A stretch of DNA of 64,000 nt. Source: a virus. Positions within the stretch are counted from its first letter, which is position 1; the number at the start of each line of letters is the position of its first letter. The notes beneath the pieces are model-generated. The model saw nothing but the letters and a program-made list of their open reading frames with translations, was not told the origin of the DNA and did no database searches. The stretch lies in IMG/VR virus record IMGVR_UViG_3300021959_000022, positions 17,608 to 81,607 of that record, one strand, 5' to 3'. Positions 3,001 to 46,671 of this stretch are shown piece by piece. The translations under genes and the position numbers were made by a program.

Positions 3001-3277
3001 ATTGACACCTGATGTGTTGAGCGTGGTCATAGTACCTGCTCAGGCATCGAGTGGATTTGGTTCATTGTTTCAGATCAACTCTTCGGAGAATGAAATTTTG
3101 ATATCATCAGCCACTGTGGATAATGTTGAGATGATCACATCGATAACTGCTGAAAAAATCAAAGCCACAGGCAATGTTGTAGTATCGACTGGTACATCAT
3201 CATCGACTACTGGCACAGCAACAGTAACATCCACAGCAACTTCTAGCAGTTCTAGCAGTTCTGGGGGTTACTACTAA
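2..3277 (+). CDS. Baseplate wedge subunit (T4 gp6-like), 5'-truncated by the window edge
   Basis: Frame is open from base 2 (IDLIAY...). Motifs typical of gp6-like proteins: '[18 protein letters not shown]', '[14 protein letters not shown]', '[24 protein letters not shown]', '[12 protein letters not shown]'. Ser/Thr-rich tail ending GGYY. Confidence 0.8.
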
Positions 3278-6200
3278 TGGCAAAATCAACTCGCCCTTCA
3301 CATAAACTATTACCACAAACTTTTCAAACCGAAAAGAATAAAAAATTCCTATCCTCCACTCTGGATCAATACATAGAACCATCCACATTGGATAAGGTTA
3401 ATGCTTATGTAGGACAAAAGTATCACAGCAGTTTTAGGAAGGATGACACATATCTTCAAGAACAGAGCAAAGAGAGACAAAATTATCAACTGGAAACAGC
3501 TACAACTTATAAATCTAATGGTTCCGAAATTGATTTCATTGCACCATACATAGATGTGGTCAATGAAATAGGTGCACGCGGTGGTGACAAGTACAGACAC
3601 GACAAACTATGGCAAAGTGATTTTTACTCATATGCTCCGCCGGTAGACGCAGACAAACTCATCAACTTCAGAGAGTATTACTGGATCCCTAATGGTCCTA
3701 TCTCGGTGCAGTCTAACATAGACAACCCCGGAAGTGTGATCACTATTAATGTAACAAATGAAGGTTTAACGGGATGGAAGTTCAACAACAAGGCCAATGT
3801 AAATCCTGACATCACTGTGTACAGAGGCAACACTTACAAGTTTGTAATCAACGCTCCGGGCATGAATTTTTGGATCAAGACAGATTATGGCACAGGACGT
3901 GACAGCACAGCTAACACAGATTACGTGAACAACAACGGAGCCTCGTCGGGCGAGGTAACTTTGTACATTCCGACGTCGGATTCGTCTACTATACCGGAAA
4001 CTGTTTTATATTACCAATGCGAAGATCATCAACCTATGCAGGGTCGATTAATAATCAAAGACCTTGCCAATGAAAATTTCGACATCCAGGAAAACCTTAT
4101 AGGAGTAAATGGATTCACAGACAGTCTTGGCCTTGTTTATTCATCAGGGCAGAAGATAACATTCCAGGGTGATCCAGTGTCCGACAGACCACAGACGTTC
4201 TACGTTGAAAATGTTGGCAGAAGTATCATGTTGGTAGAGCAGAAAGATCAATTGGTTTATGAGCTTTATGGAATCAGCGAGATTGAACCATGGGACTACA
4301 ACGGAGTGACTGGTTGGGATTCCAAGGGTTGGGGCGAAACCATAGGTATAATTGAGTTTCCTGATTACTGGACCATAAACAGAGCATCACAGGATTTGAA
4401 CGCATGGTCCAGAGGCAACAGATGGTTCCACAGATCGGTCATAGAGACAGCCAATCTTAAAAACAATCTTCAAACAACTCTGAATGAAAACCAGAGAGCC
4501 AAAAGACCTATAGTAGAATTCATACCAGGATTGCAACTGTTCAATCACGGTAGCAGAGGCAAGGGAGTTGATTTTGTCGATACCAAGACCACTGATGCAT
4601 TCAGCAATCTGCAGGGTGCGTTAGGATTGAGCATTGATCAGACCACAGTGACCGAAGGCTCCACTATCGTGTTTCCTAATGATCCTGAGCAAAAGAATAA
4701 AATTTTTACCGTCAAGTTTGTAGTTCTGGGAGACAGCAGTCTAAGGATCACGTTCGATGATGATTCCACCACTGTGCAAGAGGGACAGAGCATATTCGTC
4801 AAAAAAGGTAAAACGCAAAAAGGCAAGACATACCATTACAAAAACGGTGCATGGGTGTCGAGCCAGGCAAAGACAAAGTTGCAACAGAAGCCTTTGTTTG
4901 ATGTTTTCGATGATGCCGGAATAAGTTTATCAAAAAATGACACCTATCTGTCGACTACATTTGCTGGTTCCACACTGTTCGAAGTTGCCACTGATTCGAC
5001 TCAAGGAACTCCTGACACTGTGTACAACACAAATGTGATTTACCAAAGATATGGATTGTTGTCGGACATTCAGCTGAATGATTCTTTCAACAAGGACACA
5101 TTCCAGCACATAACAGACCAAGGCCTTGAAACATTCAACCTCAGACAGTATTTTTTGAAAGTGAATTCGGGTAGTTCGTACACACTTTCCAACAACTGGA
5201 AGAAAAATGTAATCGAACATCCTCAACAACGCATAGAAGAATACACAGCCAACAAGGATCAAACAGACTTTGAAGTCAAGGCGTGGAGAAATTCTGCACA
5301 ATTGACCGACATCACACTACAAGTTTTCATAGACGGTGAGTTGACCAAAGATTATGTGAGGAAGAACACCAACAAGAACTTGATAGTCCGGTTGAACAAA
5401 AAACAACCACAAGGAACTCAGATAACCATCAAGTCTTACTCTGAGAGAGATTTTCCTACCACAAATGGTTTTTGGGAAGTTCCTGTGACAGTGGTCGGAA
5501 ACCCATTGAACAAGAATCTTTTATCTTTCACACACGGTGACATATCTTCACACTATAAGACCGGTGTGCAAAACCACCCCTCATTCACTGGATTGGTATC
5601 GGGGGCCAACAACAGCAGAGATCTTGACAATGTTTTTGCTTATTCTACTAAATTTTTGCAACATTCCAGCAGTGCACCATTGGCGTCTGTGTTGACCAGA
5701 GATCCTGTTTTGGACATTGTGTCTGCGTTCAGATCTTCGTCCAATGACTATGAAAAAATCAAGAAATCTTTAATTTCAGCTTGCGACACTGTGACACTCA
5801 ACGGCACAGTGGCCGAACAGTTGGACCTACTTTTGTCATACATCAATTCTAACAAAAACAGTTCTATGCCATACTTTTCATCTGACATGTTGGCATATGG
5901 CACCAATAAGAACACACTGTCCTACACAGTAACTGACGCAAACATCACTTCGTATCCTATCACAAGTGCTTTCGATCTGGAAAAATTATCGGAGAAAAGT
6001 GTGTACGTTTACATCAACAATGTGCAGATACTAAACGGAACAGATTATGTGTTTACTGATCTACAAGATTCGACAGCGATCATCGGTGTGGACATAAAAA
6101 AAAGTTTGAATGTGGGAGATGTCATCATCATAGACGAATATGTTTCTACACAAGGATCGTACATCCCGGCAACACCCGCCAATCTGGGTTTGGCTCCTAA

Positions 6201-9200
6201 ATACACCCCGAGAAAGTTTTTGGATGACACTTATCAATCAGAGGATTCTACAACACAAGGCATCAATGTGATAGAAGGACATGATGGTTCCATCACAGTG
6301 GCATATGATGATTTCCGTGATGACATATTATTAGAGTTTGAAAAGAGAATATACAACAATATCAAAACTATCTACAAGGATGACATCATCAACTTAGAAC
6401 CAGGCTTCTATAGATTGAATGATTACAGCACTGACCAGTATGACACTTTGATAGCCAGAGAATTTTACACATGGTCGGGCGTGAATGCTATCGATTACTC
6501 CACTAATTCTACATATGATTCTGGAAACCCATGGACGTACAAATGGACAGGCTATCAAGCCAAGTTCGATGATTCGCAACTCAAGGGTTTTTGGAGAAGG
6601 ATATACCACCTATGGTTTGACACAGACAGACCACACACCGCTCCTTGGGAGATGTTTGAATTTTCAGAAAAACCAGAATGGTGGGATTCAGTGTATGGAC
6701 CAGCTCCTTACACAGGAGGCAACCTACTGCTTTGGAAACACGTTGAACAAGGGTTCATACCGCAAGGATCGAGAAAAGGATACTACAGGAGGTATGCCAG
6801 AAACGGAGTCCTTTCCAACATACCAGTAGACGATGCTGGAAGATTGTTGGATCCTGCCAATGCAGGAATCATCAAAGGCGGCACATCATCTGAACAACTG
6901 CAATCATCTTCTTGGGTTTTTGGAGATTGGGGCCCACCAGAGACTGCATGGAGGAAATCGTCATCATTCAGATTCGCACTACAGATAGCAAAATTTTTGG
7001 CCAGACCCGGGCAGTATTCAGGATTGTATTTCGACACGTCCAGAATTAAAAAGAACACAATAGATCAATATGTTTACGACGGCAAATATCGAGACACCAT
7101 CACAAACTATGCCCTTCCTTCGGGGACAACTTTAACCGCAGGTTATGTCAATGTGTTGTATGATTATGTCAAAGGTTTGGGTTTCGGCATCGATTACATA
7201 GCCAATAGGTTATCCAATCTTGATGTGCAGTTGGCCTACAAACTGGGTGGATTCAGCAACAAGGAAAATATGAATGTTGTGGTAGGCAGCTACAGTCCTT
7301 CTTCGACTAACAAGAGTGTATACATTCCTAAAGAAAATTTCAATTTATACTTGTTTAAAAGTGCACCTATCGACAATGTCAATTACTCGGGTGTGATAGT
7401 TGAAAAATCCGCCGGTGGATACAAACTGAGTGGATACAACAACTTTGATAGATCATTTTCATATTACCCACCTCGGATCAACAACAACAATAGTGTTGTG
7501 GTGGTGGGTGCAACAACAGAATCGTACGTGGATTGGCGAGCGAATGGATTCTATGCTTCCGGATCGGTTGTCAAGAACGGCGGATTCTTCTACAGAGCCA
7601 ACAACAATATTTCCAGCGGACAAACCTTCGAAGAGGACAATTGGAGCAAGATAGGCGCAAGCCTTCCTCTCAAGGGTGGAGTAAGGGTCAACAAATACAA
7701 GGATTACCTGCAGAATGTCGCAACCATAACATACGGCACTGAAGTAAGTTCCACACAGGAAGTGGCCAACTTCTTGTACGGTTATGATCAATATCTTAAA
7801 ACCAAAGGGTTCGTGTTTGACGAGTTTTCAACAGAACTCAACACTCCCATTGACTGGGATCTTTCAGTCAAGGAGTTTTTGTTTTGGAGCACCCAGGAAT
7901 GGGAAAATTCAGCAGTCATAACACTTTCGCCGGCATCGGCCAAATTAAAATTCCAGAAGGAAAACACAATTGGTGATGATCTCATAGGCGGTGATAATTT
8001 TTATACAGTATTACAACAGGATGGATTCCCCATCCAGCCCACAAACTTGTCCACCAACAGAACTAATGGACAATTTGTGATAGAAACCAATCCAGATGAG
8101 GATGGAATCTATAACGCAGACATCAGGGCCATACAGAAAGAACATGTGCTGATACTGGACAACAAGACTTCATTCAAAGATGTGATATATGATGACTTGA
8201 TGGGAGTCAGACAGGACCGTGTAAAATTGGTGGGGTGGAAAACATCCAACTGGAACGGAGATATTTACGCTCCCGGTTACATCGTGGACACTGCAAAAGT
8301 TTATTCCTGGACAACATTTACAGATTACAAGAAAGGCGATGTAATCAGCCATCAAAGCAACACATACGTTGTGTTGAGTAATCATAATTCCGGAGAAAAC
8401 TTCAACAATTCTTACTACAGGTTGAAAACAAGTGAGCCGCAAAAAGACCTACTACCGAACTGGGACGCCAAGGCCGAATCGTTTAGAGATTTTTACTCCT
8501 TAGATACAGAAAACTTTGATGCAGAACAACAAAAGTATGCACAGCACTTGATAGGTTTCCAGACCAGAACGTATTGGGAGAACTTGGGATTGGATGATTT
8601 GACCCAATACAAATTCTACCAAGGAATGATCAAGGACAAAGGCACAATCAAACCCATACAGCGATTCAAGTCTCCGACCACTGTGCAAGATGCAGTTGAG
8701 TACAATGTGTACGAAGAAAATGCTTTCAGAGTGGGAGAGTTTGGGTCATACAGGACAGATCAAAATTATCTCTTTGCTTTGGATGACAAAACACACAGAC
8801 AGCAACAGCAAGTATACAACATCACGCAAAGTGTTGTCGATGACACACAAAATATCATAAATGTTTCAGCATCTGAGATGCAGGACAGACCCTACGAATT
8901 ACAGTTTCCTACTTTTGCAAAATATTCATATGACACACTTAACACCCCGGATCATATTTTCCAGTATCCGATGGCTGGTTATGTACAACCACATCAAGCA
9001 AAATTTAACGCCTATGACGAATCACAGTTGCTTAATCTTTCAGTCGCAAATATGTTCGAAGGAGATAGGATCTGGTTGGCCAACACTGCCAACAAGGACT
9101 GGGAGATTTATAGAGCTACGACCATAGACAATTATATAGAATTTTATGAAGCCAGAGATGGAATACTTCAGTTCACCACATATAACCCACACGGACTTAA

Positions 9201-16090: not shown

Positions 16091-16095
16091 ACAAG

Positions 16096-18738: not shown

Positions 18739-18766
18739 CTTTTTTTATACTAATATAAACTAAGGA

Positions 18767-18772
18767 TAAATA
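18767..18772 (+). promoter_or_regulatory. T4-like late promoter core (TAAATA)
   Basis: GATAAATA in the intergenic gap, 6 nt before ATG 18779. Confidence 0.5.
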
Positions 18773-18778
18773 TTTTAA

Positions 18779-32139: not shown

Positions 32140-32142
32140 ATA
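32137..32142 (+). promoter_or_regulatory. Possible late promoter core (TAAATA)
   Basis: AATAAATA 5 nt before ATG 32148; overlaps a TAA stop, so chance occurrence is plausible. Confidence 0.35.
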
Positions 32143-32147
32143 TCCAT

Positions 32148-33856: not shown

Positions 33857-33860
33857 TAAC

Positions 33861-35542: not shown

Positions 35543-35783
35543 ATGTAAATCAAAAAAATTAATGATCAACTATGACAACACGGTGTGGCCTTGTTGTTGG
35601 GTGTGTACCAACCGTAGAGGTGATTATCTACAGTCATTACCAAAAGATTGGAACAGTCTGGATCATCACACCTTGGAAGAAATTTTAAATCATGAAGCAT
35701 TCACAAAGCACTACAACACAGAACATTGGAACGATGAGACCAAAGTAGACATAGAATGTAAGAGGGAGTGTGACCATGACTGA
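35532..35783 (+). CDS. Stand-alone SPASM/twitch Fe-S domain
   Basis: 'IKC...LMINYDNTVWPCCW...LEEIL...ECKREC' matches the C-terminus of 32780. Confidence 0.7.
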   Translation: MNIKCKSKKLMINYDNTVWPCCWVCTNRRGDYLQSLPKDWNSLDHHTLEEILNHEAFTKHYNTEHWNDETKVDIECKRECDHD

Positions 35784-38524: not shown

Positions 38525-39722
38525 AGTACCATCAACAGTTTGTGCGGCACCTTGGATGCACTTCGCAGTCAGTACTCATCCTGACGGATTTATCACAATG
38601 CCTTGTTGTAGATTTAGACTGGGCAGTGATTCGGAATATCGCAAACACAAGTTCCAACAGCCAGAACTCGCTGTAAGCCAGAGAGGTTACTTCGAAGACA
38701 TAAGGCAGAGAATGTTGGCCGGGGAAAAATTAACCGGTTGCAACAAGTGTTGGCGTGAAGAAGAGCACAAAGGGTACAGTTATAGGACGCTCATGTTCGA
38801 CCGACTGGGCATAGATGAGATCGATCACCAAGCAGGATTCAATCTCAAGTATTTGGAGATTTTCTTTTCAAATTTATGCAACCTATCATGCAGGATGTGT
38901 GATATAATGCAGTCCAGCCAATGGGCAAATCTATACAATAATGCATTTATACCCGCTGGTATCACAGACAATCAAGTTGTGCCCGAAGAATATTTGGACG
39001 AAACCGGGCGTGCCAAGACCAGTCCTGTGAGCTTTGATTTATCACTCTTAGACAAACTGGATCTCAGTGACCTCATCGAAGTCAAGATACTTGGCGGAGA
39101 ACCAATGATCACTCCGGATCACTTGGTGTTCTTGGAAAGATTGATGAAGGACAGCAAACAACCCAACAAGATAAAATTGGTGTATCACACCAATGCCACC
39201 AAACGACCACCCAAGCAAGTGGTAGATTATTGGAAACAAATGGAAAAGATAGAAATCGTTTGTAGCATCGATGGTTACGGAGAGGTCAACGAATACCAAC
39301 GGATAGGTAGCAACTTCGATACGATCCAAGACACGATCGATTGGTACAAATCACTGGACGCAAACATTGAACTGAGAATACATTCTACCATTAGCCTTTT
39401 GAACGTGTGGAAGATCGATGAATTGGTAAAATGGAGCAAGACAATCACAACTGAGAACATATCCTTCGACTTCGTACAACGACCGTCCTATTTGGATGCA
39501 ACCATAATGCCTGATGAAGCCAAAGTTAAGTGTAATGAAGTGATCCAAAATTCAACCGATCTTTCACAATCACAAAAGCAGTTTATTCTTGCATATTTGA
39601 ATTCTAAAAGTTATAATATACCGTACTGGAAGGAGTTTTGGAACAGGATGACAGCGATTGACAAATACACCAAACAGTCATTGAAAAACATAGCACCACA
39701 ATTAGAGGAATACAGAATATGA
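38514..39722 (+). CDS. Radical SAM protein with N-terminal twitch-like domain (#7)
   Basis: CNLSCRMC, 'LGGEP'; N-terminal 'VCAAPW...PCC...GCNKCW'. Confidence 0.85.
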   Translation: MTSKVPSTVCAAPWMHFAVSTHPDGFITMPCCRFRLGSDSEYRKHKFQQPELAVSQRGYFEDIRQRMLAGEKLTGCNKCWREEEHKGYSYRTLMFDRLGIDEIDHQAGFNLKYLEIFFSNLCNLSCRMCDIMQSSQWANLYNNAFIPAGITDNQVVPEEYLDETGRAKTSPVSFDLSLLDKLDLSDLIEVKILGGEPMITPDHLVFLERLMKDSKQPNKIKLVYHTNATKRPPKQVVDYWKQMEKIEIVCSIDGYGEVNEYQRIGSNFDTIQDTIDWYKSLDANIELRIHSTISLLNVWKIDELVKWSKTITTENISFDFVQRPSYLDATIMPDEAKVKCNEVIQNSTDLSQSQKQFILAYLNSKSYNIPYWKEFWNRMTAIDKYTKQSLKNIAPQLEEYRI

Positions 39723-40774
39723 CCATAGCGACCTACACAGAATTCCAACCGTTAAAAGAAGTATTGGTTGGATCAGCATTTGAAACATCTAATTTTGATC
39801 ATGTTGAAGATCTTGAAGCAAGAGATCTGTTCAAACGAGTCTTTGAGGAAACCAACGAAGATTTGGAAACGCTGTGTGGTATTTTAAAACAAGCAGGTGT
39901 GACTGTACACAGACCCAAACAAATATTCAATTTCAGTGAAGAACAAACAGTGATCACACCATGGATGAAATCTTGGTTTCCAAATCACCCATTGATGCCA
40001 AGGGACATAATGGGAGTGTATGGTTCCAATGTGGTTGAACACTTCACCGGTGATGCTGGAAGATTCTTTGAGAACCTGGCATATCAACCCATCAGCAGAT
40101 CGTTGTATGACAGGGGTATGAGATGGCTGAGCATGCCGATGCCGTATGTGACCACAGACAAGATCCCATACAAAGACATGAACAACAGCCAAATCTTTTA
40201 TCATGCCGCAAATGTCATCAAATGTGGCAAGGATCTATTTTACAGCCTTCCCGGCGATGTTGATTTCGTTAAAGGCAAAGGCACTTCAGCAGGCATAGAA
40301 TGGCTACAACGTGAGTTGGGCGATCAATTCAGATGGACAAAGATTCCAACTGGCGGCCACGCGGACGGCAAAATTGCACTGTTAAAACCCGGTGTGTTGA
40401 TGACCTGGAACAGGAATTGGGTTCCAGAGAAGTTGCAGGATTGGGACATCATCGAAGTCAGATCCGAAACCGAACTGCCAAATGAAATACAGTACATGAA
40501 AAAACAGAGATACTACAAAAACTTCATCCAAGAATGGTTCTCGCATTGGATAGGTTGTGTGGAAGAAACTGTGTTCGATGTCAATGTGTTTTCCATAGAC
40601 GAATCCACAGTAATCTGCACAGGCAAGAATCAGTACGCATTCCGTAGGATGGAGAAGCATGGCATCACCCCTATATATTGGAAGTTCAGACATCAATATT
40701 TTTGGGATGGCGGCATACACTGTGTCACACAGGATCTTGTGAGAGAAGGCAATCAAGAGGATTATTTTGCTTAA
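39719..40774 (+). CDS. Amidinotransferase (glycine/inosamine-phosphate amidinotransferase family, pentein fold)
   Basis: 'EFQPLKEVLVG', 'PRD', 'HADG' and terminal catalytic 'GGIHCVTQD'. Confidence 0.8.
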   Translation: MTIATYTEFQPLKEVLVGSAFETSNFDHVEDLEARDLFKRVFEETNEDLETLCGILKQAGVTVHRPKQIFNFSEEQTVITPWMKSWFPNHPLMPRDIMGVYGSNVVEHFTGDAGRFFENLAYQPISRSLYDRGMRWLSMPMPYVTTDKIPYKDMNNSQIFYHAANVIKCGKDLFYSLPGDVDFVKGKGTSAGIEWLQRELGDQFRWTKIPTGGHADGKIALLKPGVLMTWNRNWVPEKLQDWDIIEVRSETELPNEIQYMKKQRYYKNFIQEWFSHWIGCVEETVFDVNVFSIDESTVICTGKNQYAFRRMEKHGITPIYWKFRHQYFWDGGIHCVTQDLVREGNQEDYFA

Positions 40775-42095
40775 GAGCCAATTAAAATATGACATACTTT
40801 TAGACTCGTTGGGTCATACCGACGGCACTCTACTGCAACCATCACCTCGATGCATCGCTCCATTCTTGTGCCTCACAATAGATCCCAATGGAGATGTTTT
40901 CACGGACTCTGTGTACAGATTGGCATTAGGCAATCTGCATGAACAGTCTCTCAAGGAAATCTGGGAAGGCGACACTTGGAAACAACTGAGGCAGGATCAG
41001 ATAGACAGGAAGATAAATCCTGGGTGTGTTGATTGTGCAAACAAAGACAAGATGATAGGCCACAGTCGTAGAAGATTCTATGACACTTTTTTTATGTACA
41101 GGATGCCACGGAATCAAATGGAACCGATCACAGACGACCAAGGCTGGAATCTCACCCTAAGACCCAAAGTGACAGATTACAATAATCCCAATTTCCTTTA
41201 TCTCGATATCAGCACATCAAACAAGTGTAATTTAAAATGTGTACATTGCAGAGGAGCCGTCAGCACAGGATGGATACCCGACGAAAAGAAACTTCAAAAG
41301 TCTGACATCAAGGATTTGAGGATGAACAGGTTTGGTGTGTACAGCATGGAAACTGATGTGATTGATAAGATATTCCAATTTCCAGAGTACTTTAAGAATC
41401 TAAGATATGTTGCACTGCGTGGCGGTGAACCCACATACGAAGCCAAGAACAAGATCATCCTCAAAAAATTGATCGATCTTGGTTGGAACAGCCAGATCAC
41501 CATAGACATTTCGACCAACGCCACAGTGAACGACGAGGAATTCATGGACCTGTTAGGACAGTTTGAAAGTGTGATGCTCTACATCAGCATCGAGGGAGTC
41601 GGTGAAATGTATGAGTATTGTAGAGGTGGCAAGCAGTACAAGATAGACGATCTCGAGAAGATGATATTCAAATACGCAAACTTGCGAAACAACGAAATTT
41701 GTGTTACATTTACAAGCATGGCCACAAACATATTCAACATCAGGGCAACTTGGGATTGGCTACAGAAGTACAGGGATTATTGCACCTTCTCATTCTCCAA
41801 CACAGTGAGCCAGCCGGAATATCTCAGCCTTGGAGCATTGAACAATGAAATGAGGAAAGAAGCATACGACATGATACAGGACATACACGAAGACATGCCA
41901 TGGCCGGGCGAGTTCAACAGAAGTTATCAAGCGGGGATAGACAAGTTGAAGGTCAATCTCAACAAGCCTGAGCTACCGAACTGGCAAACATATTTTAACA
42001 ATTTCAAAAGGTACATCACTGCCATAGACAAAGTGAGAAACACAGACTTTTTAGAAATAGAACCAACATACAGGAAATTTTGGGAGATAAAATGA
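40767..42095 (+). CDS. Radical SAM protein with N-terminal twitch-like domain (#8)
   Basis: CNLKCVHC, 'RGGEP'; N-terminal 'RCIAPF...LGNL...GCVDC' (the CC pair is replaced by 'DS'). Confidence 0.8.
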   Translation: MLKSQLKYDILLDSLGHTDGTLLQPSPRCIAPFLCLTIDPNGDVFTDSVYRLALGNLHEQSLKEIWEGDTWKQLRQDQIDRKINPGCVDCANKDKMIGHSRRRFYDTFFMYRMPRNQMEPITDDQGWNLTLRPKVTDYNNPNFLYLDISTSNKCNLKCVHCRGAVSTGWIPDEKKLQKSDIKDLRMNRFGVYSMETDVIDKIFQFPEYFKNLRYVALRGGEPTYEAKNKIILKKLIDLGWNSQITIDISTNATVNDEEFMDLLGQFESVMLYISIEGVGEMYEYCRGGKQYKIDDLEKMIFKYANLRNNEICVTFTSMATNIFNIRATWDWLQKYRDYCTFSFSNTVSQPEYLSLGALNNEMRKEAYDMIQDIHEDMPWPGEFNRSYQAGIDKLKVNLNKPELPNWQTYFNNFKRYITAIDKVRNTDFLEIEPTYRKFWEIK

Positions 42096-43033
42096 GCAAC
42101 AAATTCTCGGGACTTTTTAAAGACTACTTGGGCACTACTGGCAACAGCACTACCATAGAACCACCCTTTAAATTCTTACAGGATCATGTCAAGGAACATG
42201 GATGGTTCAATATCGATTACGATGTACAAGACGAGTATCTGGACACTTTCACACAATGGATCAAGTCTTCCAAGTTGAACAAGGTGGAAGGCCTCGACAC
42301 TTTTCCATTCAAGTATGTGAGCCTTGGTGCCACACAAACACTGGATTGGTTCCATTATGAATGTGCAAGGAACAAATGGCGACTCAGAATGCTCAGAGGC
42401 GAGTACCCGTACAACAGAGATGTACATGAATTCTATTGGGAATGGTTCATAGACGATGAAAACGAACCACTACAAAAAAATGATGCGGTGGTGATGAGTG
42501 TGCCTTTTTCTGGTGCAGGTCACATCCATCCGAGGTATTATGAAATATTAGAAAAGTGTGATCAACTCAATATTCCTGTTATGATTGATTGTGCATGGTT
42601 TGGTACTTGTTATGGTCTTGAGTGGACTTTGGATTTCAACTGCATCAAAGTGGTTGCTTTCTCCACAACCAAGGGTTTGGGCACAGGACAATTCAGATCT
42701 GGCATCTGCTACACCAAATGGAAATACGGCCCGATGGCTGTGCAAACAGAATGGCATCATGGCATCCATTTGAACACATATGTTGGTAACATGCTGATGA
42801 AAGAATTCAGTCCTGACACTGTGCCAAACTTGTACAGAGAATCTCAGCACGAGGTGTGCAAATACTTTGGTTTAGTACCATCGCCCACAATCCATATAGC
42901 ATCTGGCAGAAAACCAGATTGGGATTTTTTCCATAGAGATAGTTCATACAACAGAATCAACATAAGGAAGCCTGTGTTTGACTATTATAAAAATAAGTTT
43001 TATAATGTAGTTGAGGAAAGATTGAATGGCTAA
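42092..43033 (+). CDS. PLP-dependent enzyme (fold type I, aminotransferase-like)
   Basis: 'VMIDCAW' (DxA) and 'FSTTKGLG...RSG' (Schiff-base Lys); SD GGAG before ATG 42092. Confidence 0.7.
   Translation: MSNKFSGLFKDYLGTTGNSTTIEPPFKFLQDHVKEHGWFNIDYDVQDEYLDTFTQWIKSSKLNKVEGLDTFPFKYVSLGATQTLDWFHYECARNKWRLRMLRGEYPYNRDVHEFYWEWFIDDENEPLQKNDAVVMSVPFSGAGHIHPRYYEILEKCDQLNIPVMIDCAWFGTCYGLEWTLDFNCIKVVAFSTTKGLGTGQFRSGICYTKWKYGPMAVQTEWHHGIHLNTYVGNMLMKEFSPDTVPNLYRESQHEVCKYFGLVPSPTIHIASGRKPDWDFFHRDSSYNRINIRKPVFDYYKNKFYNVVEERLNG
42978..43006 (+). promoter_or_regulatory. Internal sigma70-type promoter
   Basis: TTGACT-17 nt-TATAAT inside the 3' end of the PLP gene; GAGG SD and ATG 43026 follow. Confidence 0.6.
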
Positions 43034-43823
43034 CTTAAGATACATCACCTGTTGCAAGAATTACAGACAGCAAATTATCGAACGATTCAGACCTGCACAA
43101 AAGATACCAAAGTTCTTCAGCAAGAGCGAAATAGAAAAGATAAGGCTGTATCAATTTCAAAATGCACACAGAGCCAAGTTTCAAGAAACAGCATCCAACA
43201 TACAGTCTGTAGTTGATATGACAGACATGTTTAAAAAGATGCCATGGTTGCAGTATAGATTCGAAGAATTATTCGGCAGGGGAGAATTTTCTACTGAACA
43301 CAGCGGTAACTTTTACATCACCACACAGCCACACGATTGCCACGTTGATTTGCCCACTGAGGATGAACACACATATAGATGGTATGACAACATGATTCCG
43401 TGGAAGAGTGTGATTATTCCTCTGTTCTTAAGACATGGAACTAAAGCTTGGACAGCATTTTACAAACAAAGACGCATTGGCTATTCAGTGACGTTTGACA
43501 GAGATTTTTCCAGCAGTCAAGATAATTCTGCATACAGGATAGCAAGAGTGTATGATGGACTTATTGATCAGTTCGGCAATCCCACAGATCCTGAAAAAGA
43601 TTATGGACAGTGGAGCGAACAAAGATATCCACATGTGTCACAAAATAATTTGAGAGGTTTCGAAGAGGAAACAATATTAGAACACGAAACAGGAAGTTTA
43701 TTTGTGTTTGATGCTTGTCAGATACATGCCAGTGTGCTTCACGATGGTAAACCTGCCGACTGGATGAAGAACGGAATCAACATACAATTTTACAAATATC
43801 ATGACAGTTCAAAAGAGTTTTGA
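43026..43823 (+). CDS. Putative Fe(II)/2OG dioxygenase (PhyH-like)
   Basis: 'CHVD' HxD and 'GSLFVFD...IHAS'. Confidence 0.55.
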   Translation: MANLRYITCCKNYRQQIIERFRPAQKIPKFFSKSEIEKIRLYQFQNAHRAKFQETASNIQSVVDMTDMFKKMPWLQYRFEELFGRGEFSTEHSGNFYITTQPHDCHVDLPTEDEHTYRWYDNMIPWKSVIIPLFLRHGTKAWTAFYKQRRIGYSVTFDRDFSSSQDNSAYRIARVYDGLIDQFGNPTDPEKDYGQWSEQRYPHVSQNNLRGFEEETILEHETGSLFVFDACQIHASVLHDGKPADWMKNGINIQFYKYHDSSKEF

Positions 43824-44274
43824 TGAGTTCAGAGATAAGTTTCTTGCATGGAGCGAATCTCACATAGAAAAGGTGAAACCCAACGGGTTTCCTGTTTGTC
43901 CATACGCAAGAAAAGCCAGACTGGGCAATGAGATACAGTTCATTGATGCACGGGAAAATATAAACTCTTGTGTGGACGAATTAGATCTCAAGAAATACAT
44001 GATAGCCATATGCTGGTTGGGAGACGAGATGGCATACACCCAAAAATACATCGACAAGAAGATCAAAGAGTTTTCAGAAGATCCCAAGCACACCAATCTA
44101 TTATTCTTTATCAGCAATAAAGAATCAGGTGCTTTTGTTAAGAACTTTACCAACTGCATATTTGTGCAGATCAAAAGCGATATCATGAGCAGGAGAGCCT
44201 ATCTAAAACACACTAATTACTACGATAATTGGCCTGCGGAGTATTACAAGTACATTACAGGCGAGGACAAGTAA
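43801..44274 (+). CDS. Hypothetical protein (DUF1415-like CPYA motif)
   Basis: 'W...IEK......PVCPYARKA' motif. Confidence 0.45.
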   Translation: MTVQKSFDEFRDKFLAWSESHIEKVKPNGFPVCPYARKARLGNEIQFIDARENINSCVDELDLKKYMIAICWLGDEMAYTQKYIDKKIKEFSEDPKHTNLLFFISNKESGAFVKNFTNCIFVQIKSDIMSRRAYLKHTNYYDNWPAEYYKYITGEDK

Positions 44275-44285
44275 AACACCGCTGT

Positions 44286-45536
44286 ATGACGCTTAAACCA
44301 CCATTAAAACAGCAGATATCCGAGGATCCTACTGCTGATATATCGCCTACTTTCTGCGTGTTACCTTTCATGCATTTGGCAACAAACGCCAGTGGCAAGT
44401 ACAGAGTTTGCTGTAATTCAACACCTGGTAAAAACCATATTGTTGATGAGAACAATGAACCCATGAAATTAGATCAGCACGACATAGAAGAAGTTTGGAA
44501 CCTTCCTTATTATCAAAAAATCAGACAGCAGTTTATTAATGGAGAACGTCCTGAAATTTGCCAGAGATGTTTTTCAGAAGAAGATGCGGGCGTTAAAAGT
44601 GCGAGGCAGAGTTACAACGAATCATGGTACAATGACACCATAGACATCCAAACAGAGTATGCTCATCCTGATATAAGATACATTGATCTAAGACTGGGCA
44701 ATCTGTGTAATTTAAAATGTAGGATGTGCAATCCGTATGCAAGTTCACAGTGGGTGAAAGAATGGAACGATGTCGTTAGCACAGCAGAATTGGTGCCCAA
44801 TGAAAAATTACCCGAAGATGAAATCAAAAGGCTATCCAACATGGACTGGTTTGAAAACAGCAAGGTATGGGATAACATTTCTAAAATTGCTGACTGCATA
44901 GAAGAAATATATCTGACCGGAGGAGAGCCGACACTCGCCACAAAACAATATGACCTGTTCCAATACTTGCAGGACAAGGATTTCGCCAAACACATACGTT
45001 TGAAATACAACACCAATCTTACAAACATTCCGGACAGGATGGTTTGGTACTGGCACTTCTTTAAAATGGTCAAGATAAATGCTTCAATAGATGCTGTTGG
45101 AGATTTGGATAGGTACGTGAGATATCCATCTTCGTGGAACAAGATTGAAGAAAACTTTAAGAAACTGAGAAGACTTAGAAACACCAGACTCCAGATTCAT
45201 TCTACCGTGCAGACTTATAACATCTTAGCACTTCCTAAATTGTATGAATGGTGCGATTCCATCATGTTCGATGATGTGTACTTAAATATTTTAAATCATC
45301 CCAAGTGCTTGAACATAAAAACACTACCTTTAGAGTTGAAAAAATTAGTTGAGGAAAGACTTCAACCATACACAAACAGGCCAAAGGTCAAACAAGTCAT
45401 CCAATACATGTACTCTGAAGATTGGTACGCAACGTACTGGAAGGAGTTTGTTGATTACACAAACGCCCTTGATAAAAGCAGAGGAGAAAATATCTTAGAT
45501 TTAGTTCCTGAGTTCAAGGAGTTCTGGAATGTCTAA
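44286..45536 (+). CDS. Radical SAM protein with N-terminal twitch-like domain (#9)
   Basis: CNLKCRMC, 'LTGGEP'; N-terminal 'FCVLPF...VCC...ICQRCF'; start moved to ATG 44286. Confidence 0.85.
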   Translation: MTLKPPLKQQISEDPTADISPTFCVLPFMHLATNASGKYRVCCNSTPGKNHIVDENNEPMKLDQHDIEEVWNLPYYQKIRQQFINGERPEICQRCFSEEDAGVKSARQSYNESWYNDTIDIQTEYAHPDIRYIDLRLGNLCNLKCRMCNPYASSQWVKEWNDVVSTAELVPNEKLPEDEIKRLSNMDWFENSKVWDNISKIADCIEEIYLTGGEPTLATKQYDLFQYLQDKDFAKHIRLKYNTNLTNIPDRMVWYWHFFKMVKINASIDAVGDLDRYVRYPSSWNKIEENFKKLRRLRNTRLQIHSTVQTYNILALPKLYEWCDSIMFDDVYLNILNHPKCLNIKTLPLELKKLVEERLQPYTNRPKVKQVIQYMYSEDWYATYWKEFVDYTNALDKSRGENILDLVPEFKEFWNV

Positions 45537-46671
45537 CTTGGCAACATCGGAATACGATTTCAGTGCGATTCCGTTTGATGATATCGTTAGTGTTGGACAA
45601 AGGACACTGCTGTACAGAGATATATTTTCTGTGAGTTGGTTGTTGGGGAGATTTTGTAATTACAGATGTTCGTACTGCTGGCCATACGCCAGATCCAACA
45701 CCAAGGACCATAGACCAACTGAGTTGTGTTTACAAACCATCGACGAAATCAAAAGACAGGCCAGGGAAAGATCATTCAATTCATTCCATTTTTCATTGAG
45801 TGGCGGCGAACCAACCTTCCATCCCGGATATCTGGACATAATGAAGCATCTTGCAGATGATGTTTCCAACACCAACTACACATCTGTACACATGACATCC
45901 AATTGTTCAAGGCCGATGAAATGGTTCGAAACATATGTTGATCATGCGTCTAAGTTTCACAGGGCATCCATCACTGCCAGCCTACACGTGGAACACGTCA
46001 ACACTCCCGACCGCATGCAGGACTTCGCCGACAAGTTAATTTACTGTCAAGAACACGATGTGCAAGTCACTATCAATATGGTTATGGTTCCGGAATCATT
46101 TGATCGCTACTATGAAAATGCTTTGTTCTTCCACAACCAAGGCATAAATGTCACACTCAAGCCACAGTCGGACACCACCGCATCTAAGATTGTAGACGGC
46201 TACACGGATGAAATGAAGGAAAAATTATACAACGGCATGCCGCAGAGAGCATTCACTGAAGTTAAAAACAAATATGTCATGAGACCCAAACCCAAATTCC
46301 CTATAGAATCAAAAGAAAACATCACTCACAACACGGAAGTTCCGCAACACTTTCAAGTGGAGTTCCAAGATTCCAAGGGCAAGAAATGGTACATGGACCA
46401 AGCAGAACGATTCAATGCTTTCAATTTTAACAAATTCGAAGGTTGGGAGTGTTCATCTGGATATAGATCAATCATCATAAGGGAACCTGACGGTTCGATA
46501 AAAAGATCTTATTCTTGTGCAGATGTGCCTTTGGGTAACATCGAAACAGGATTCAAGTTGTTCGATGCTCCAATGCCGTGCATAACAAAAAGTTGTGTGA
46601 GTTCAGCGGACAGTAAAATTCCAAAACGGAAAGTCGGTAGCGGAGTTAAATTATACCCTCATTCATCGTGA
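45529..46671 (+). CDS. Radical SAM protein with C-terminal Cys-rich domain (#10)
   Basis: CNYRCSYC, 'LSGGEP'; C-terminal 'WECSSG...SC...LGNI...PCITKSC'. Confidence 0.85.
   Translation: MSNLATSEYDFSAIPFDDIVSVGQRTLLYRDIFSVSWLLGRFCNYRCSYCWPYARSNTKDHRPTELCLQTIDEIKRQARERSFNSFHFSLSGGEPTFHPGYLDIMKHLADDVSNTNYTSVHMTSNCSRPMKWFETYVDHASKFHRASITASLHVEHVNTPDRMQDFADKLIYCQEHDVQVTINMVMVPESFDRYYENALFFHNQGINVTLKPQSDTTASKIVDGYTDEMKEKLYNGMPQRAFTEVKNKYVMRPKPKFPIESKENITHNTEVPQHFQVEFQDSKGKKWYMDQAERFNAFNFNKFEGWECSSGYRSIIIREPDGSIKRSYSCADVPLGNIETGFKLFDAPMPCITKSCVSSADSKIPKRKVGSGVKLYPHSS

What the first reader, a model, noticed from the sequence alone, without database searches (positions are those of the whole stretch)
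3277..46671. Candidate new system: phage-encoded virion glycosylation and glycan tailoring
Seen: a ~25-kb chain of overlapping enzyme genes directly follows the baseplate/fibre genes. It holds 4-5 GT-like genes, 10 radical SAM genes, 3 2OG oxygenases, an amidinotransferase, a PLP enzyme, a nitroreductase, an SGNH protein and a methyltransferase, and the structural proteins upstream are rich in a repeated D-S-[S/T] motif. Known: twitch-domain radical SAMs (e.g. BtrN), PLP transaminases and amidinotransferases (StrB1) tailor sugars and cyclitols. Inference: the GTs attach glycans to Ser in the D-S-x loops and the other enzymes diversify them into an unusual virion coat. Modification of host surface glycans or of phage DNA are alternatives.
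Basis: partly seen in the sequence, partly recalled or inferred. Interest (0 to 1): 0.92.

Follow-up and report, generated by a model that had tools for sequence, protein, structure and literature searches.

The report
Jumbo-phage radical-SAM and glycosyltransferase island
An uncultured estuarine giant phage carries, just behind its tail-fibre genes, a real 25-kb block of soluble sugar-transferring and iron-sulfur radical enzymes that probably builds and edits an unusual sugar chain, but what that chain is attached to is still unknown.

Summary
The gene chain is real. Window 21365-46671 holds 27 + strand ORFs, and 23 of 26 junctions overlap. A 28th, conserved 73-aa ORF had been missed.

- **Confirmed:** ten radical SAM genes, seven of them in the uncharacterised NCBIfam family NF033640 (twitch domain at the N-terminus), and an amidinotransferase.
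- **Supported by fold or profile:** five glycosyltransferase-like genes.
- **Weak leads only:** the aminotransferase, methyltransferase and nitroreductase labels.
- **No tool support:** the three 2OG oxygenases and the SGNH protein.

The island is not unique. Its core recurs after homologous fibre genes in at least 597 IMG/VR stretches and in Ralstonia phage RsoM2USA. Part of it also occurs in two Bdellovibrionia MAG contigs beside GT2 genes. The scan noted it before on other DNA.

The D-S-[S/T] motif is enriched here (21 observed, 5.5 expected), but it fails as a sequon. Enrichment is inconsistent among relatives that carry the island and absent in RsoM2USA, and other tripeptides are more enriched.

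In 49 of 71 relatives the enzyme block has its own sigma-70-type promoter, while the fibre genes carry a T4-late-like motif.

The best reading is a cytoplasmic glycan-building and glycan-editing pathway. A virion target is favoured only weakly over host surface glycans.

The parts
2..3277 (+). baseplate wedge protein (gp6-like); the ORF starts upstream of the window
   Evidence: tblastn 32-37% identity to annotated baseplate wedge proteins of SCTP-2, Phosso, PA5oct and GAP32
3277..16062 (+). giant virion structural protein, 4261 aa
   Evidence: homologous to PA5oct gp355 (MS-detected virion protein per the record note) and Phosso 294; D-S-[S/T] 21 vs 5.5 expected
16096..16743 (+). 215-aa structural-block protein
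   Evidence: 55% identity to Phosso 293 and 39% to PA5oct gp357
16747..18738 (+). tail fibre 1 (663 aa)
   Evidence: N- and C-terminal similarity to PA5oct gp358/gp359 and the Phosso fibre
18766..18773 (+). ATAAATAT late-promoter-like motif, 5 nt before the fibre start codon
   Evidence: 3 occurrences on the + strand of the 81.6-kb contig, all 5-6 nt before an ATG; [AG]TAAATA lies upstream of 50 of 115 fibre homologues vs 24 of 3000 background windows
18779..20374 (+). tail fibre 2 (531 aa)
   Evidence: paralogue of 16747
20422..21327 (+). fibre-associated structural protein (301 aa)
   Evidence: 29% identity to PA5oct gp360, MS-detected per the record note; present in 68 of 81 related loci
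21330..21358 (+). sigma-70-type promoter-like site (TTGACA-17-TACAAT) at the head of the enzyme block
   Evidence: 11 of 12 match; 11 or more of 12 upstream of 49 of 71 homologues vs 8 of 3000 background windows
21365..21718 (+). conserved 117-aa protein of unknown function; first gene of the core
   Evidence: 71 of 81 loci and RsoM2USA ORF354; no family hit
21711..22571 (+). GT8-like glycosyltransferase (GT-A, DxD)
   Evidence: family profile hits glycogenin at E 1e-5; D109 and D111 invariant; no Pfam hit
22562..23413 (+). GT8-like paralogue
   Evidence: 29% identity to 21711; same profile
23406..23972 (+). 188-aa protein of unknown function
   Evidence: weakly conserved, 21 of 81 loci; an ORF of the same size sits at this position in RsoM2USA
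23969..24892 (+). GT-A-fold transferase of an unnamed, very large family
   Evidence: AF2 pLDDT 82.6; Foldseek and VIA hits to GT-A transferases; D64-G-D66 invariant; more than 7489 homologues
24885..26285 (+). N_Twi radical SAM
   Evidence: NF033640 334.5 bits, cut-off 170
26275..26907 (+).
   Evidence: no Pfam, PHROG or PDB hit; 16 homologue clusters, only one carrying a Pfam domain (PF12322, a 323-aa protein covering 62% of the query)
26897..28306 (+). N_Twi radical SAM
   Evidence: NF033640 308.9 bits
28245..29570 (+). GT-B-fold glycosyltransferase-like protein
   Evidence: AF2 pLDDT 70.2; Foldseek hits to OtsA, GtfA/B, SdgB, TarM and T4 BGT, E 6e-5 to 5e-3
29557..30369 (+).
   Evidence: no family hit; GxS and DGH motifs seen only by eye
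30080..30108 (+). sigma-70-type promoter-like site, 12 of 12, 250 nt before 30362
   Evidence: 9 of 50 homologues of 30362 have an 11-or-more-of-12 site upstream
30362..31042 (+). GT-A paralogue of 23969
   Evidence: 32% identity to 23969; fused with a 23969-like half in about 530-aa proteins
31026..31931 (+). conserved 301-aa protein, possibly a SAM methyltransferase
   Evidence: ESM Atlas lead; no Pfam or PDB hit; RsoM2USA ORF347 homologue
   Evidence: 61-74% identity in 24 loci; follows the 31026 homologue in 23 of 24
32136..32143 (+). ATAAATAT late-promoter-like motif, 5 nt before 32148
32148..32771 (+). nitroreductase-like protein (weak)
   Evidence: PF00881 E 0.033, full length, below cut-off
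32780..33856 (+). radical SAM with a Cys-rich C-terminal part; conserved core member
   Evidence: PF04055 E 6.5e-5; 39 loci at median 64% identity; homologue in Bdellovibrionia MAG contigs
33861..34862 (+). 333-aa unknown; '2OG oxygenase' unverified
   Evidence: no hit
34862..35542 (+). radical SAM core (226 aa), paralogue of the N-terminal part of 32780
   Evidence: PF04055 60.3 bits; 26% identity to 32780
35532..35783 (+). 83-aa SPASM-like piece in another frame: a split or frameshifted partner of 34862
   Evidence: PF13186 E 4.9e-4
35770..37125 (+). N_Twi radical SAM
   Evidence: NF033640 214 bits
37115..38524 (+). N_Twi radical SAM; most conserved member
   Evidence: NF033640 420.1 bits; the 120 homologues listed are 74-94% identical; 57-59% identity in Bdellovibrionia MAG contigs
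38514..39722 (+). N_Twi radical SAM
   Evidence: NF033640 282.4 bits
39719..40774 (+). amidinotransferase
   Evidence: StrB1 1bwd E 3.8e-26, also HsvA, SxtG and AGAT; C-terminal His-Cys aligned
40767..42095 (+). N_Twi radical SAM
   Evidence: NF033640 224.3 bits
42080..43033 (+). class I/II aminotransferase-like protein (lead)
   Evidence: ESM Atlas score 0.99 to viral clusters with PF00155 on 17-27% of members; no PDB or Pfam hit
42978..43006 (+). sigma-70-type promoter-like site (11 of 12) before 43026
43026..43823 (+). 265-aa unknown; '2OG oxygenase' unverified
   Evidence: no informative hit
43801..44274 (+). 157-aa unknown
   Evidence: no informative hit; a paralogue lies upstream of the window
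44229..45536 (+). N_Twi radical SAM
   Evidence: NF033640 385.2 bits
45529..46671 (+). radical SAM without an N-terminal twitch domain; last gene of the chain
   Evidence: PF04055 53.3 bits; 58-60% identity in Bdellovibrionia MAG contigs

Best explanation
The stretch is one copy of a widespread, fibre-adjacent enzyme island of aquatic jumbo myophages of the Rak2/PA5oct/SCTP-2 kind.

**Proposed mechanism.** All its proteins are soluble, so the work is done in the cytoplasm of the infected cell.
1. Four GT-A-type transferases (two GT8-like, two of an unnamed DxD family) and one GT-B-like transferase assemble a short glycan from host nucleotide sugars.
2. Ten radical SAM enzymes edit its sugars. 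Seven belong to the uncharacterised N-terminal-twitch family NF033640. Likely reactions are oxidation, epimerisation, deoxygenation or C-methylation, as twitch enzymes do on aminoglycosides.
3. An aminotransferase-like enzyme and an amidinotransferase then add amino and guanidino groups. Further unidentified enzymes add other changes.
4. The product is most likely attached to a protein of the adsorption apparatus: a fibre or a fibre-associated protein.
5. The variable cassette between the two conserved GT-A genes diversifies the product among related phages.

**What is shown:** the genes, the enzyme families and folds named above, the conserved core, its position and its variability.

**What is inferred:** that the product is a glycan, the kind of radical chemistry, and above all the target.
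For: **Enzyme identities.**
- NF033640 for 7 of 10 radical SAM proteins.
- GT8-like profile.
- GT-A fold with an invariant DGD.
- GT-B fold.
- Amidinotransferase.
- Aminotransferase-like lead.

**No membrane machinery.** No membrane-spanning segment is credible. The highest hydropathy peak lies in the Rossmann-like part of 31026. Nothing in the chain matched a flippase, polymerase or polyprenyl-phosphate enzyme family in Pfam.

**Position.**
- The order fibre, 20422, 21365, two GT8-like genes, then 23969 recurs in the loci fetched. Of 81 loci, 58 have fibre hits, 68 have 20422 hits, 71 have 21365 hits and 74-75 have GT8-like hits.
- The same order is in RsoM2USA, ORF355 to ORF347.
- PA5oct has the same structural block without the island. 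The island is therefore an add-on to this fibre module.

**Variability.** Each locus has 1-6 N_Twi genes within 10 kb (73 of 81 loci). Between 3 and 12 exceed the cut-off in five longer relatives. The content between 23969 and 30362 differs from locus to locus. The two flanking GT-A halves are fused in other phages.

**Independent link between these radical SAM enzymes and glycosyl transfer.** Two Bdellovibrionia MAG contigs with ordinary bacterial genes hold the trio of 45529-like, 37115-like and 32780-like genes. Beside it lie GT2 genes and a 544-aa protein whose N-terminus looks like a type IV pilin; that resemblance was read by eye from a recalled motif.

**Late-type motif.** In this window, ATAAATAT lies 5-6 nt before only three + strand genes: the wedge, fibre 18779, and 32148 at the head of the distal enzyme half.

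**Fold neighbours (weak).** They include protein glycosyltransferases: PBCV-1 A64R, SunS/ThuS, ppGalNAcT, GtfA/B, SdgB and glycogenin.
Against: - No result shows a glycan, or any modification, on a virion protein.
- The D-S-[S/T] sequon idea fails.
- The head of the enzyme block carries a near-consensus sigma-70-type promoter in 49 of 71 relatives. In this contig, sites of that class also precede the DNA-metabolism genes on the minus strand. The fibre genes carry the late-type motif instead. Most of the block may therefore be expressed before the virion genes.
- Promoter evidence is mixed. RsoM2USA has no sigma-70-like site there and has GTAAATA-like words 60-75 nt upstream.
- PA5oct builds homologous fibres without the island.
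- In Vibrio phage K566, N_Twi-like radical SAM genes lie far from fibres, in an accessory region with a gene annotated as PagP-like.
- No nucleotide-sugar synthesis gene was recognised in the chain.
- The fold matches are to folds shared by transferases with all kinds of acceptors.
Confidence: 0.4

Rival explanations
1. Host-surface remodelling. The soluble transferases and tailoring enzymes act on cytoplasmic intermediates of host lipopolysaccharide, capsule or another envelope glycan during infection. This would change the cell surface, for example to stop superinfection or to stop progeny sticking to debris. It is the reading given in print for glycosyltransferases in pelagimyophage host-recognition clusters.
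For: - A sigma-70-type promoter heads the block in 49 of 71 relatives. Sites of this class also precede DNA-metabolism genes in this contig.
- GT8 enzymes include lipopolysaccharide core transferases (established knowledge).
- The pelagimyophage paper proposes O-chain modification (PMC7029224, passages read).
- N_Twi-like genes in Vibrio phage K566 lie in an accessory region with a gene annotated as PagP-like.
- PA5oct fibres do without the island.
Against: - No membrane protein, flippase, polymerase or lipid-carrier enzyme is in the chain.
- The island keeps its place behind the fibre genes in distant phages of different hosts, including the soil phage RsoM2USA. That is unexpected if it matched each host's own glycan.
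- The distal half in this window carries the late-type motif.
Confidence: 0.22
2. Radical protein maturation (RiPP-like). The radical SAM enzymes act directly on a protein or peptide, either the conserved 73-aa ORF or a fibre protein. They would install cross-links or oxidised residues. The transferases would play a secondary role.
For: - SPASM and twitch enzymes are mostly peptide or protein maturases (established knowledge). Weak NCBIfam side-hits go to such maturases.
- A conserved 73-aa ORF sits directly before the 32780 homologue in 12 of 24 loci.
- A pilin-like protein lies next to the trio in Bdellovibrionia MAG contigs.
Against: - The 73-aa ORF is absent from the Bdellovibrionia loci.
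- It was not detected in the RsoM2USA locus, which has one N_Twi gene.
- The Pfam and NCBIfam scans of the radical SAM proteins listed no recognition-element (PqqD-like) domain.
- Five transferases, an amidinotransferase and an aminotransferase-like enzyme are not explained.
Confidence: 0.12
3. A free small molecule. The island makes an aminoglycoside- or aminocyclitol-like compound, or alters the nucleotide-sugar pool. The product would act on the host or on competitors and would not be attached to anything.
For: - The run of N_Twi radical SAM, amidinotransferase (best hit StrB1), N_Twi radical SAM and aminotransferase-like gene (38514-43033) recalls streptidine logic (recalled pathway knowledge).
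- A cyanophage paper calls a similar trio 'antibiotic synthesis genes' (PMC12801897, passages read).
Against: - No exporter or resistance gene is present, and no cyclitol synthase was recognised.
- The amidinotransferase and aminotransferase genes are rare among relatives: 4 and 0 of 81 loci. The GT and radical SAM core is what is conserved.
Confidence: 0.1
4. DNA hypermodification. The transferases and tailoring enzymes decorate a modified base in phage DNA.
For: - The promoter class is shared with DNA-metabolism genes.
- Phage DNA hypermodification pathways can use radical SAM, PLP and transferase enzymes (recalled knowledge).
- A 7-deazaguanine-type gene set lies on the minus strand of the window.
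Against: - No nucleotide-handling enzyme is in the chain.
- The complete relative G001 has one thymidylate-synthase-family gene. It scores 338 bits and lies about 50 kb from the island.
- The island tracks the fibre genes, not the replication genes.
Confidence: 0.06

Closest known systems
NCBIfam NF033640, N_Twi_rSAM (twitch domain-containing radical SAM protein)
   Same: Seven proteins score 214-420 bits against a cut-off of 170. They have the N-terminal Cys cluster, CxxxCxxC and GGEP.
   Different: The family has a name but no known reaction. My full-text search on its product name found no study of a member with the twitch domain at the N-terminus. Here 7 copies stand in one operon-like chain, and up to 12 in a relative. 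None of 14 model genomes has a member above the cut-off.
Host recognition cluster of pelagimyophages and cyanomyophages (Zaragoza-Solas et al. 2020, PMC7029224)
   Same: A variable island after a giant VrlC-type structural gene, holding tail fibres, GT8-type glycosyltransferases and radical SAM 'cassettes' (passages read).
   Different: That island belongs to T4-like phages of about 150 kb. This phage's wedge protein is closest to Rak2/PA5oct/SCTP-2-type jumbo phages. No cultured T4-like phage among 50,697 records holds these GT families. I could not test whether the radical SAM families are the same.
Virus-encoded virion glycosylation (PBCV-1 capsid glycosyltransferase A64R; mycobacteriophage capsid and tail-tube glycosylation, Freeman et al. 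2023)
   Same: Soluble viral GT-A enzymes encoded near structural genes. A64R is the top Foldseek hit of 23969 (E 2e-4, TM 0.27-0.38).
   Different: Those systems have no radical SAM expansion, and their glycoproteins were shown by experiment. Here no glycoprotein is known. The Freeman paper was seen only as a citation inside other papers.
Aminoglycoside tailoring enzymes (BtrN-type twitch radical SAM dehydrogenase, StrB1 amidinotransferase)
   Same: 39719 is a clear StrB1/AGAT-family member. Twitch radical SAM enzymes acting on amino sugars or cyclitols are a precedent (recalled).
   Different: In BtrN the twitch domain is C-terminal, and no sequence relationship to it was found here. No cyclitol synthase is present.
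Ralstonia phage RsoM2USA ORF347-355 (MG752970.1)
   Same: The only cultured phage found with the core: a fibre-like protein, a 21365-like gene, two GT8-like genes, a GT-A gene, an N_Twi radical SAM gene, the second GT-A gene and a 31026-like gene. Identity is 28-45%.
   Different: It is a minimal form with one radical SAM gene. All its genes are annotated hypothetical, and the paper does not mention them: 0 occurrences of 'radical' and 1 of 'glycosyl' in passages read.

Membership tests
Radical SAM superfamily (PF04055) | CxxxCxxC cluster motif and a match to the family model | tested here: met
   All 10 proteins show the motif and match PF04055. 7 of 10 are above the Pfam cut-off; 26897, 32780 and 37115 are below.
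NF033640 N_Twi_rSAM | score above the curated cut-off of 170 bits over the full model | tested here: met
   Met by 7 of 10: 24885, 26897, 35770, 37115, 38514, 40767 and 44229, at 214-420 bits. 32780 and 45529 score 39-43 bits; 34862 is not listed.
NF033640 N_Twi_rSAM | auxiliary-cluster (twitch/SPASM-like) Cys motif N-terminal to the radical SAM core | tested here: met
   Pfam SPASM matches at residues 11-114, before the radical SAM match, in 35770, 37115, 40767 and 44229. C11, C92 and C95 are invariant in the alignment.
Glycosyltransferase family 8 (glycogenin, LgtC type) | match to the family model above cut-off | tested here: not met
   No Pfam hit for 21711 or 22562, even at E up to 10. 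They are therefore called GT8-like, not members.
Glycosyltransferase family 8 (glycogenin, LgtC type) | sequence relationship over the nucleotide-sugar-binding half, with the DxD motif | tested here: met
   The profile of 30 sequences hits 19 distinct glycogenin sequences at E 1e-5 to 1e-4, over profile positions 14-106. D109 and D111 are invariant.
GT-A fold glycosyltransferases (GT2-like) | GT-A Rossmann-like fold with an acidic DxD after the fourth strand | tested here: met
   23969 model has pLDDT 82.6. VIA gives Z 8.4-10.5 over residues 3-176 to many GT-A enzymes (nucleotidyltransferases of the same fold also appear). D64-G65-D66 is invariant.
GT-A fold glycosyltransferases (GT2-like) | match to PF00535 above cut-off | tested here: not met
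   30362 reaches only E 0.19 (12.1 bits, cut-off 23.3). 23969 has no hit.
GT-B fold glycosyltransferases | two Rossmann-like domains matching solved GT-B enzymes | tested here: inconclusive
   28245 model has pLDDT 70.2. Foldseek gives E 6e-5 to 5e-3, TM 0.22-0.39, and the listed matches are nearly all GT-B enzymes. The family profile had no hit among PDB sequences.
Amidinotransferases (StrB1 / AGAT family) | full-length sequence similarity and the C-terminal catalytic Cys | tested here: met
   1bwd E 3.8e-26, 5wpi E 3.9e-25, 6u1r, 1jdw. The His-Cys of the C-terminal motif aligns with StrB1.
2OG-Fe(II) oxygenases | match to a family model or a solved member | tested here: not met
   26275, 33861 and 43026 have no Pfam, PHROG or PDB sequence hit of this kind. 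HxD...H was seen only by eye.
SGNH hydrolases | match to a family model | tested here: not met
   29557 has no hit.
Pelagimyophage host recognition cluster | variable island with fibres, GT8-type GTs and radical SAM cassettes after a giant structural gene | tested here: met
   description from PMC7029224
Pelagimyophage host recognition cluster | T4-like pelagimyophage genome | tested here: not met
   The wedge protein is closest to Rak2/PA5oct/SCTP-2-type jumbo phages. CheckV completeness of 23% for 81.6 kb implies about 350 kb. The complete relative is 381,886 bp.
Virion glycosylation systems (mycobacteriophage, chlorovirus) | a glycan demonstrated on a virion protein | not testable with these tools
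   Needs glycoproteomics.
RiPP radical SAM/SPASM maturase systems | a cognate precursor peptide next to the maturase | tested here: inconclusive
   A conserved 73-aa ORF lies before the 32780 homologue in 12 of 24 loci. It is absent from the Bdellovibrionia loci and not detected in the RsoM2USA locus.

The most novel reading that the evidence does not exclude
Giant aquatic phages coat a protein of their adsorption apparatus with a glycan that a battery of N-terminal-twitch radical SAM enzymes rewrites. This would be a new class of glycan-editing radical enzymes. Amino and guanidino groups are then added. Shuffling of the enzyme cassettes between two conserved transferase genes gives each phage lineage its own coat, which would act as a host-range or anti-defence determinant. 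Predatory Bdellovibrionia would use the same enzyme trio on a pilus-like surface protein.
Probability: 0.22. Interest if true: 0.85.

Novelty: new variant of a known kind. Interest (0 to 1): 0.6.

Why it matters
If the product is a radical-edited glycan on the phage's host-recognition apparatus, three things follow.
- Virion glycosylation, shown so far for chloroviruses, giant viruses and mycobacteriophages, would extend to a very abundant group of aquatic jumbo phages.
- A first function would be assigned to the NF033640 radical SAM family. Homologues of the 37115 member alone number 3224 metagenomic clusters at E 1e-10 or better.
- A hypervariable chemical layer of phage-host specificity would come to light.

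Even with the target unknown, the island is a large reservoir of uncharacterised radical chemistry. One cultured phage, RsoM2USA, carries the minimal core, so the question can be tested at the bench.

Tried and rejected
**Searches that found nothing**
- Megablast of 20400-44000 and 46700-64000 against 50,697 phage records: no match.
- PHROGs for ten dark proteins: nothing informative.
- PDB sequence searches found nothing useful for the 23969 family profile, the 28245 family, the 31026 family, the 73-aa ORF (only designed repeat proteins), 42080, 33861, 43026 and 26275.
- The last homologue search, on 26275, gave 16 clusters; none carried a Pfam domain except one 323-aa protein with PF12322.
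- TET/JBP family search: it rang nowhere, not even in the controls, so it says nothing.
- Sequencing runs: the stretch is held by estuary and marine metagenome runs of 2018-2023. No RNA holder is listed.

**Complex prediction.** Complex prediction of the 32780 family with the 73-aa ORF returned 'no answer' (score 0.12, mark 0.32). This is no evidence either way.

**Readings rejected**
- D-S-[S/T] as a glycosylation sequon.
- The enzyme chain as simply the tail of the late fibre operon. This was rejected for most relatives because of the conserved sigma-70-type promoter. The picture is mixed in this window and in RsoM2USA.
- The general sigma-70 promoter scan of 15500-33000 was at chance level (40 found, 40.3 expected). 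Only the conserved sites are used.
- A search of the related loci for ATAAATA next to called ORF starts found few cases, because ORF starts were called too far upstream. Redone with alignment-based starts.
- Kinship with the 'moraphage' lineage, which has four core glycosyltransferase orthogroups (PMC12619734, section 12 and passages read), could not be tested because no sequences were at hand.

**Literature.** Full-text searches found no functional study of this island. In print I saw:
- radical SAM 'cassettes' and GT8 genes in pelagimyophage islands (PMC7029224, passages);
- 12 radical SAM genes in a T4-like marine viral genome (PMC5332604, passages);
- an amidinotransferase, AHBA-synthase-like gene and radical SAM trio in a cyanophage (PMC12801897, passages);
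- the RsoM2USA genome paper (PMC8504454, passages).

Full report
**What the window is.** The window is bases 17608-81607 of an 81.6-kb IMG/VR viral contig that CheckV rates 23% complete. That implies a genome of roughly 350 kb. The baseplate wedge protein (2-3277) is 32-37% identical to those of Rak2/PA5oct/SCTP-2/Phosso-type jumbo myophages. Upstream of the window lie hub-like and gp25-like ORFs, read by eye. The stretch is held by estuary and marine metagenome runs from 2018 to 2023.

**The observation.** After the wedge come:
- a 4261-aa protein (3277-16062);
- a 215-aa protein;
- two paralogous fibres (16747, 18779);
- a 301-aa protein (20422).

All are homologous to the virion block of PA5oct (gp355, gp357-gp360, marked as MS-detected in the record) and of Phosso.

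From 21365 to 46671 run 27 + strand ORFs, and 23 of 26 junctions overlap. The one 216-nt 'gap' is not empty. It holds a 73-aa ORF (31918-32139) that is 61-74% identical in 24 related loci.

None of the proteins has a credible membrane segment.

**Enzyme identities.**

|---|---|---|---|
| Radical SAM (10) | 24885, 26897, 32780, 34862, 35770, 37115, 38514, 40767, 44229, 45529 | All match PF04055, seven above cut-off; all show CxxxCxxC | 3-6, 10 |
| N-terminal twitch subfamily | 24885, 26897, 35770, 37115, 38514, 40767, 44229 | NF033640 at 214-420 bits (cut-off 170); auxiliary Cys cluster before the core | 5, 22, 54 |
| GT8-like | 21711, 22562 | Paralogues; joint profile hits glycogenin at E 1e-5; invariant DxD | 48, 50, 120 |
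| GT-A | 23969, 30362 | AF2 pLDDT 82.6; GT-A fold, VIA Z up to 10.5; invariant D-G-D; 30362 is the paralogue | 32, 41, 44, 49, 120 |
| GT-B-like | 28245 | AF2 pLDDT 70.2; GT-B fold | 92, 101 |
| Amidinotransferase | 39719 | StrB1 E 4e-26 | 63 |
| PLP enzyme | 42080 | Lead only | 65 |
| Methyltransferase | 31026 | Lead only | 102 |
| Nitroreductase | 32148 | Pfam E 0.033, below cut-off | 21 |
| 2OG oxygenases | 26275, 33861, 43026 | No tool support | 20, 21, 90, 129-132 |
| SGNH | 29557 | No tool support | 20, 90 |

Two further points:
- 34862 and the 83-aa SPASM-like ORF 35532 together look like a split paralogue of 32780.
- About 530-aa proteins in other phages are fusions of a 23969-like half and a 30362-like half.

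**How common it is.**
- The 23969 family has more than 7489 members in the metagenome protein collection. The listed members carry no Pfam domain and no informative name.
- At least 597 IMG/VR stretches encode it.
- In the 81 loci fetched, the order fibre(s), 20422, 21365, GT8-like, GT8-like, (188 aa), 23969 is nearly invariant.
- The region after 23969 is variable. It is filled with N_Twi radical SAM genes (1-6 within 10 kb) and with 28245-, 29557-, 39719- and 45529-like genes.
- This variable region is usually followed by 30362, 31026, the 73-aa ORF, 32780 and a 37115 orthologue.
- The 120 homologues of 37115 listed, out of 3224, are 74-94% identical to it.
- Five longer relatives carry 3, 6, 8, 11 and 12 N_Twi genes above the cut-off. 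One of them is a complete 381,886-bp genome. None of 14 model genomes has a member above the cut-off.
- Among 50,697 cultured-phage records, only Ralstonia phage RsoM2USA has the transferase families. It carries a minimal eight-gene core, ORF354-347, after a fibre-like ORF355.
- N_Twi-like genes also occur in three Vibrio phages. In K566, the one whose record I read, they are not near fibres.
- PA5oct has the same structural block and no island. Phosso has a different radical-SAM-rich cluster at the same place.

**A bacterial counterpart.** A scan of one genome per species with 37115 found three contigs.
- One is a phage-like contig binned in a Crocinitomicaceae MAG.
- Two are syntenic Bdellovibrionia MAG contigs with ordinary bacterial genes (CheX, HD domain, aldehyde dehydrogenase, enoyl-CoA hydratase, a solute symporter).

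In the two Bdellovibrionia contigs, 45529-like, 37115-like and 32780-like genes stand together (58-60%, 57-59% and 37-42% identity). Beside them are:
- GT2 genes;
- a methyltransferase-like gene (read by eye);
- a 544-aa protein with a type-IV-pilin-like N-terminus, also read by eye from a recalled motif.

This links the radical SAM trio to glycosyl transfer independently of phage fibres.

**The D-S-[S/T] motif.** It is enriched in this window's giant protein (21 observed vs 5.5 expected) and fibres (5 vs 1.3; 3 vs 0.9).

| Protein | Island present? | Observed / expected |
|---|---|---|
| Giant proteins of five relatives | yes | 2/3.7, 9/4.5, 9/5.5, 15/3.7, 9/3.6 |
| RsoM2USA giant | yes (core) | 3/2.2 |
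| PA5oct giant | no | 4/2.9 |
| Phosso giant | no (different cluster) | 3/2.5 |
| Homologous fibres, pooled | yes | 156/74.9 |
| 20422-like proteins, pooled | yes | 50/53.2 |
| Enzymes, pooled | yes | 94/94.8 |

In the fibres, at least 25 other tripeptides are enriched 2.9- to 4.3-fold. Part of the D-S-[S/T] signal comes from conserved homologous positions, for example after a Trp.

**Regulation.**
- A near-consensus sigma-70-type site lies directly before 21365 (21330-21358). A site matching 11 or more of 12 positions lies before 49 of 71 homologues, against 8 of 3000 background windows.
- Fibre genes instead carry [AG]TAAATA within 45 nt upstream: 50 of 115, and 20 of 53 for 20422-like genes, against 24 of 3000 background windows.
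- In this contig, the other strong sigma-70-type sites precede 30362 (at a distance), 43026 and the DNA-metabolism genes on the minus strand.
- ATAAATAT occurs three times on the + strand, each time 5-6 nt before a start codon: the wedge, fibre 18779 and 32148.

This suggests two units. The proximal half (21365-31931) would be read like the DNA-metabolism genes, and the distal half (32148-46671) like the virion genes. This is inference. RsoM2USA does not show the sigma-70-type site, and no transcript data were available.

**Interpretation.** The enzyme set fits a cytoplasmic pathway that assembles a short glycan and edits it heavily. The target is open.

Points that lean towards the adsorption apparatus:
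- the island's fixed place behind one type of fibre module in distant phages;
- the absence of any membrane or lipid-carrier machinery;
- the late-type motif on the distal half;
- the bacterial locus with a pilin-like neighbour.

Points that lean against:
- the promoter class of the proximal half;
- the failed sequon;
- PA5oct's island-free fibres;
- the Vibrio phage context.

My odds:

| Target | Odds |
|---|---|
| Virion | 0.40 |
| Host surface glycan | 0.22 |
| Direct protein maturation | 0.12 |
| Free metabolite | 0.10 |
| DNA | 0.06 |
| None of these | the remaining 0.10 |

**Comparison with what is known.**
- In print, similar islands are described only by content: GT8 and radical SAM cassettes in pelagimyophage host recognition clusters; 12 radical SAM genes in a marine T4-like genome; and an amidinotransferase, PLP and radical SAM trio in a cyanophage.
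- My six full-text searches found no functional study.
- The scan has met this island before on other DNA. 204 findings in at least 179 genomes hold the search words, and earlier follow-ups reached similar verdicts.

I file it as a new variant of a known kind: virus-encoded glycan machinery with an unprecedented radical SAM expansion of an uncharacterised family.

Noticed in passing
window 31918-32139 (+): A conserved 73-aa ORF with a TTG start here fills the only gap in the enzyme chain. It is 61-74% identical in 24 loci, which is more conserved than most of its enzyme neighbours. It always follows the 31026 homologue and often directly precedes the 32780 radical SAM gene. No family or PDB match.
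   Followed up: partly
window 34862-35783 (+): A 226-aa radical SAM core and an 83-aa SPASM-like ORF overlap by 11 nt in different frames. Together they resemble the single gene 32780. This could be a frameshift, a split gene or a sequencing error.
   Followed up: no
window 21330-21358, 30080-30108, 42978-43006 (+); 63556, 56358, 54924, 50252 (-): Near-consensus sigma-70-type promoter-like sites precede the enzyme block and the DNA-metabolism genes. Structural genes instead have ATAAATAT 5-6 nt before the start codon, which suggests near-leaderless late transcripts. ATAAATAT is rare: 3 occurrences on the + strand and 0 on the - strand of 81.6 kb.
   Followed up: partly
G000:C1:1185-2270 (+) and 3041-3544 (-), upstream of the window: A second amidinotransferase paralogue (27% identical to 39719) and a paralogue of 43801 lie about 15 kb before the baseplate genes. 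Next to them are an ORF that looks like a membrane protein and two small ORFs with nucleotide-binding-like motifs, all read by eye. This may be a second small enzyme island.
   Followed up: no
L101 8686-12656 and L100 8911-12603 (Bdellovibrionia MAG contigs): A chromosomal trio of 45529-like, 37115-like and 32780-like radical SAM genes lies beside GT2 genes and a 544-aa protein with a pilin-like N-terminus. It is syntenic in two MAGs.
   Followed up: partly
L093 19999-28148 (Sinorhizobium phage Phosso): At the same position, after a homologous fibre gene, lies a different enzyme cluster. It has three annotated radical SAM genes and an oxidoreductase, with a fourth radical SAM gene about 4 kb further on. 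It shows no sequence similarity to this window's enzymes. Enzyme islands behind the fibre genes may have arisen more than once in this phage group.
   Followed up: no
window 55428-58530 (-): QueE-like radical SAM, dehydrogenase and GTP cyclohydrolase PHROG matches lie on the minus strand.
   Followed up: no
L102 21549-25951 (Vibrio phage K566): Three annotated radical SAM genes, of which tblastn matched two to the window's N_Twi proteins at 23-24% identity, sit in an accessory region. The region also holds NAD-salvage genes and a gene annotated as PagP-like, and is far from any fibre gene.
   Followed up: no
proteins P0008, P0023, P0028, P0052: About 530-aa proteins are end-to-end fusions of a 23969-like half and a 30362-like half. 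The two GT-A paralogues that flank the variable cassette here probably work as a pair.
   Followed up: partly
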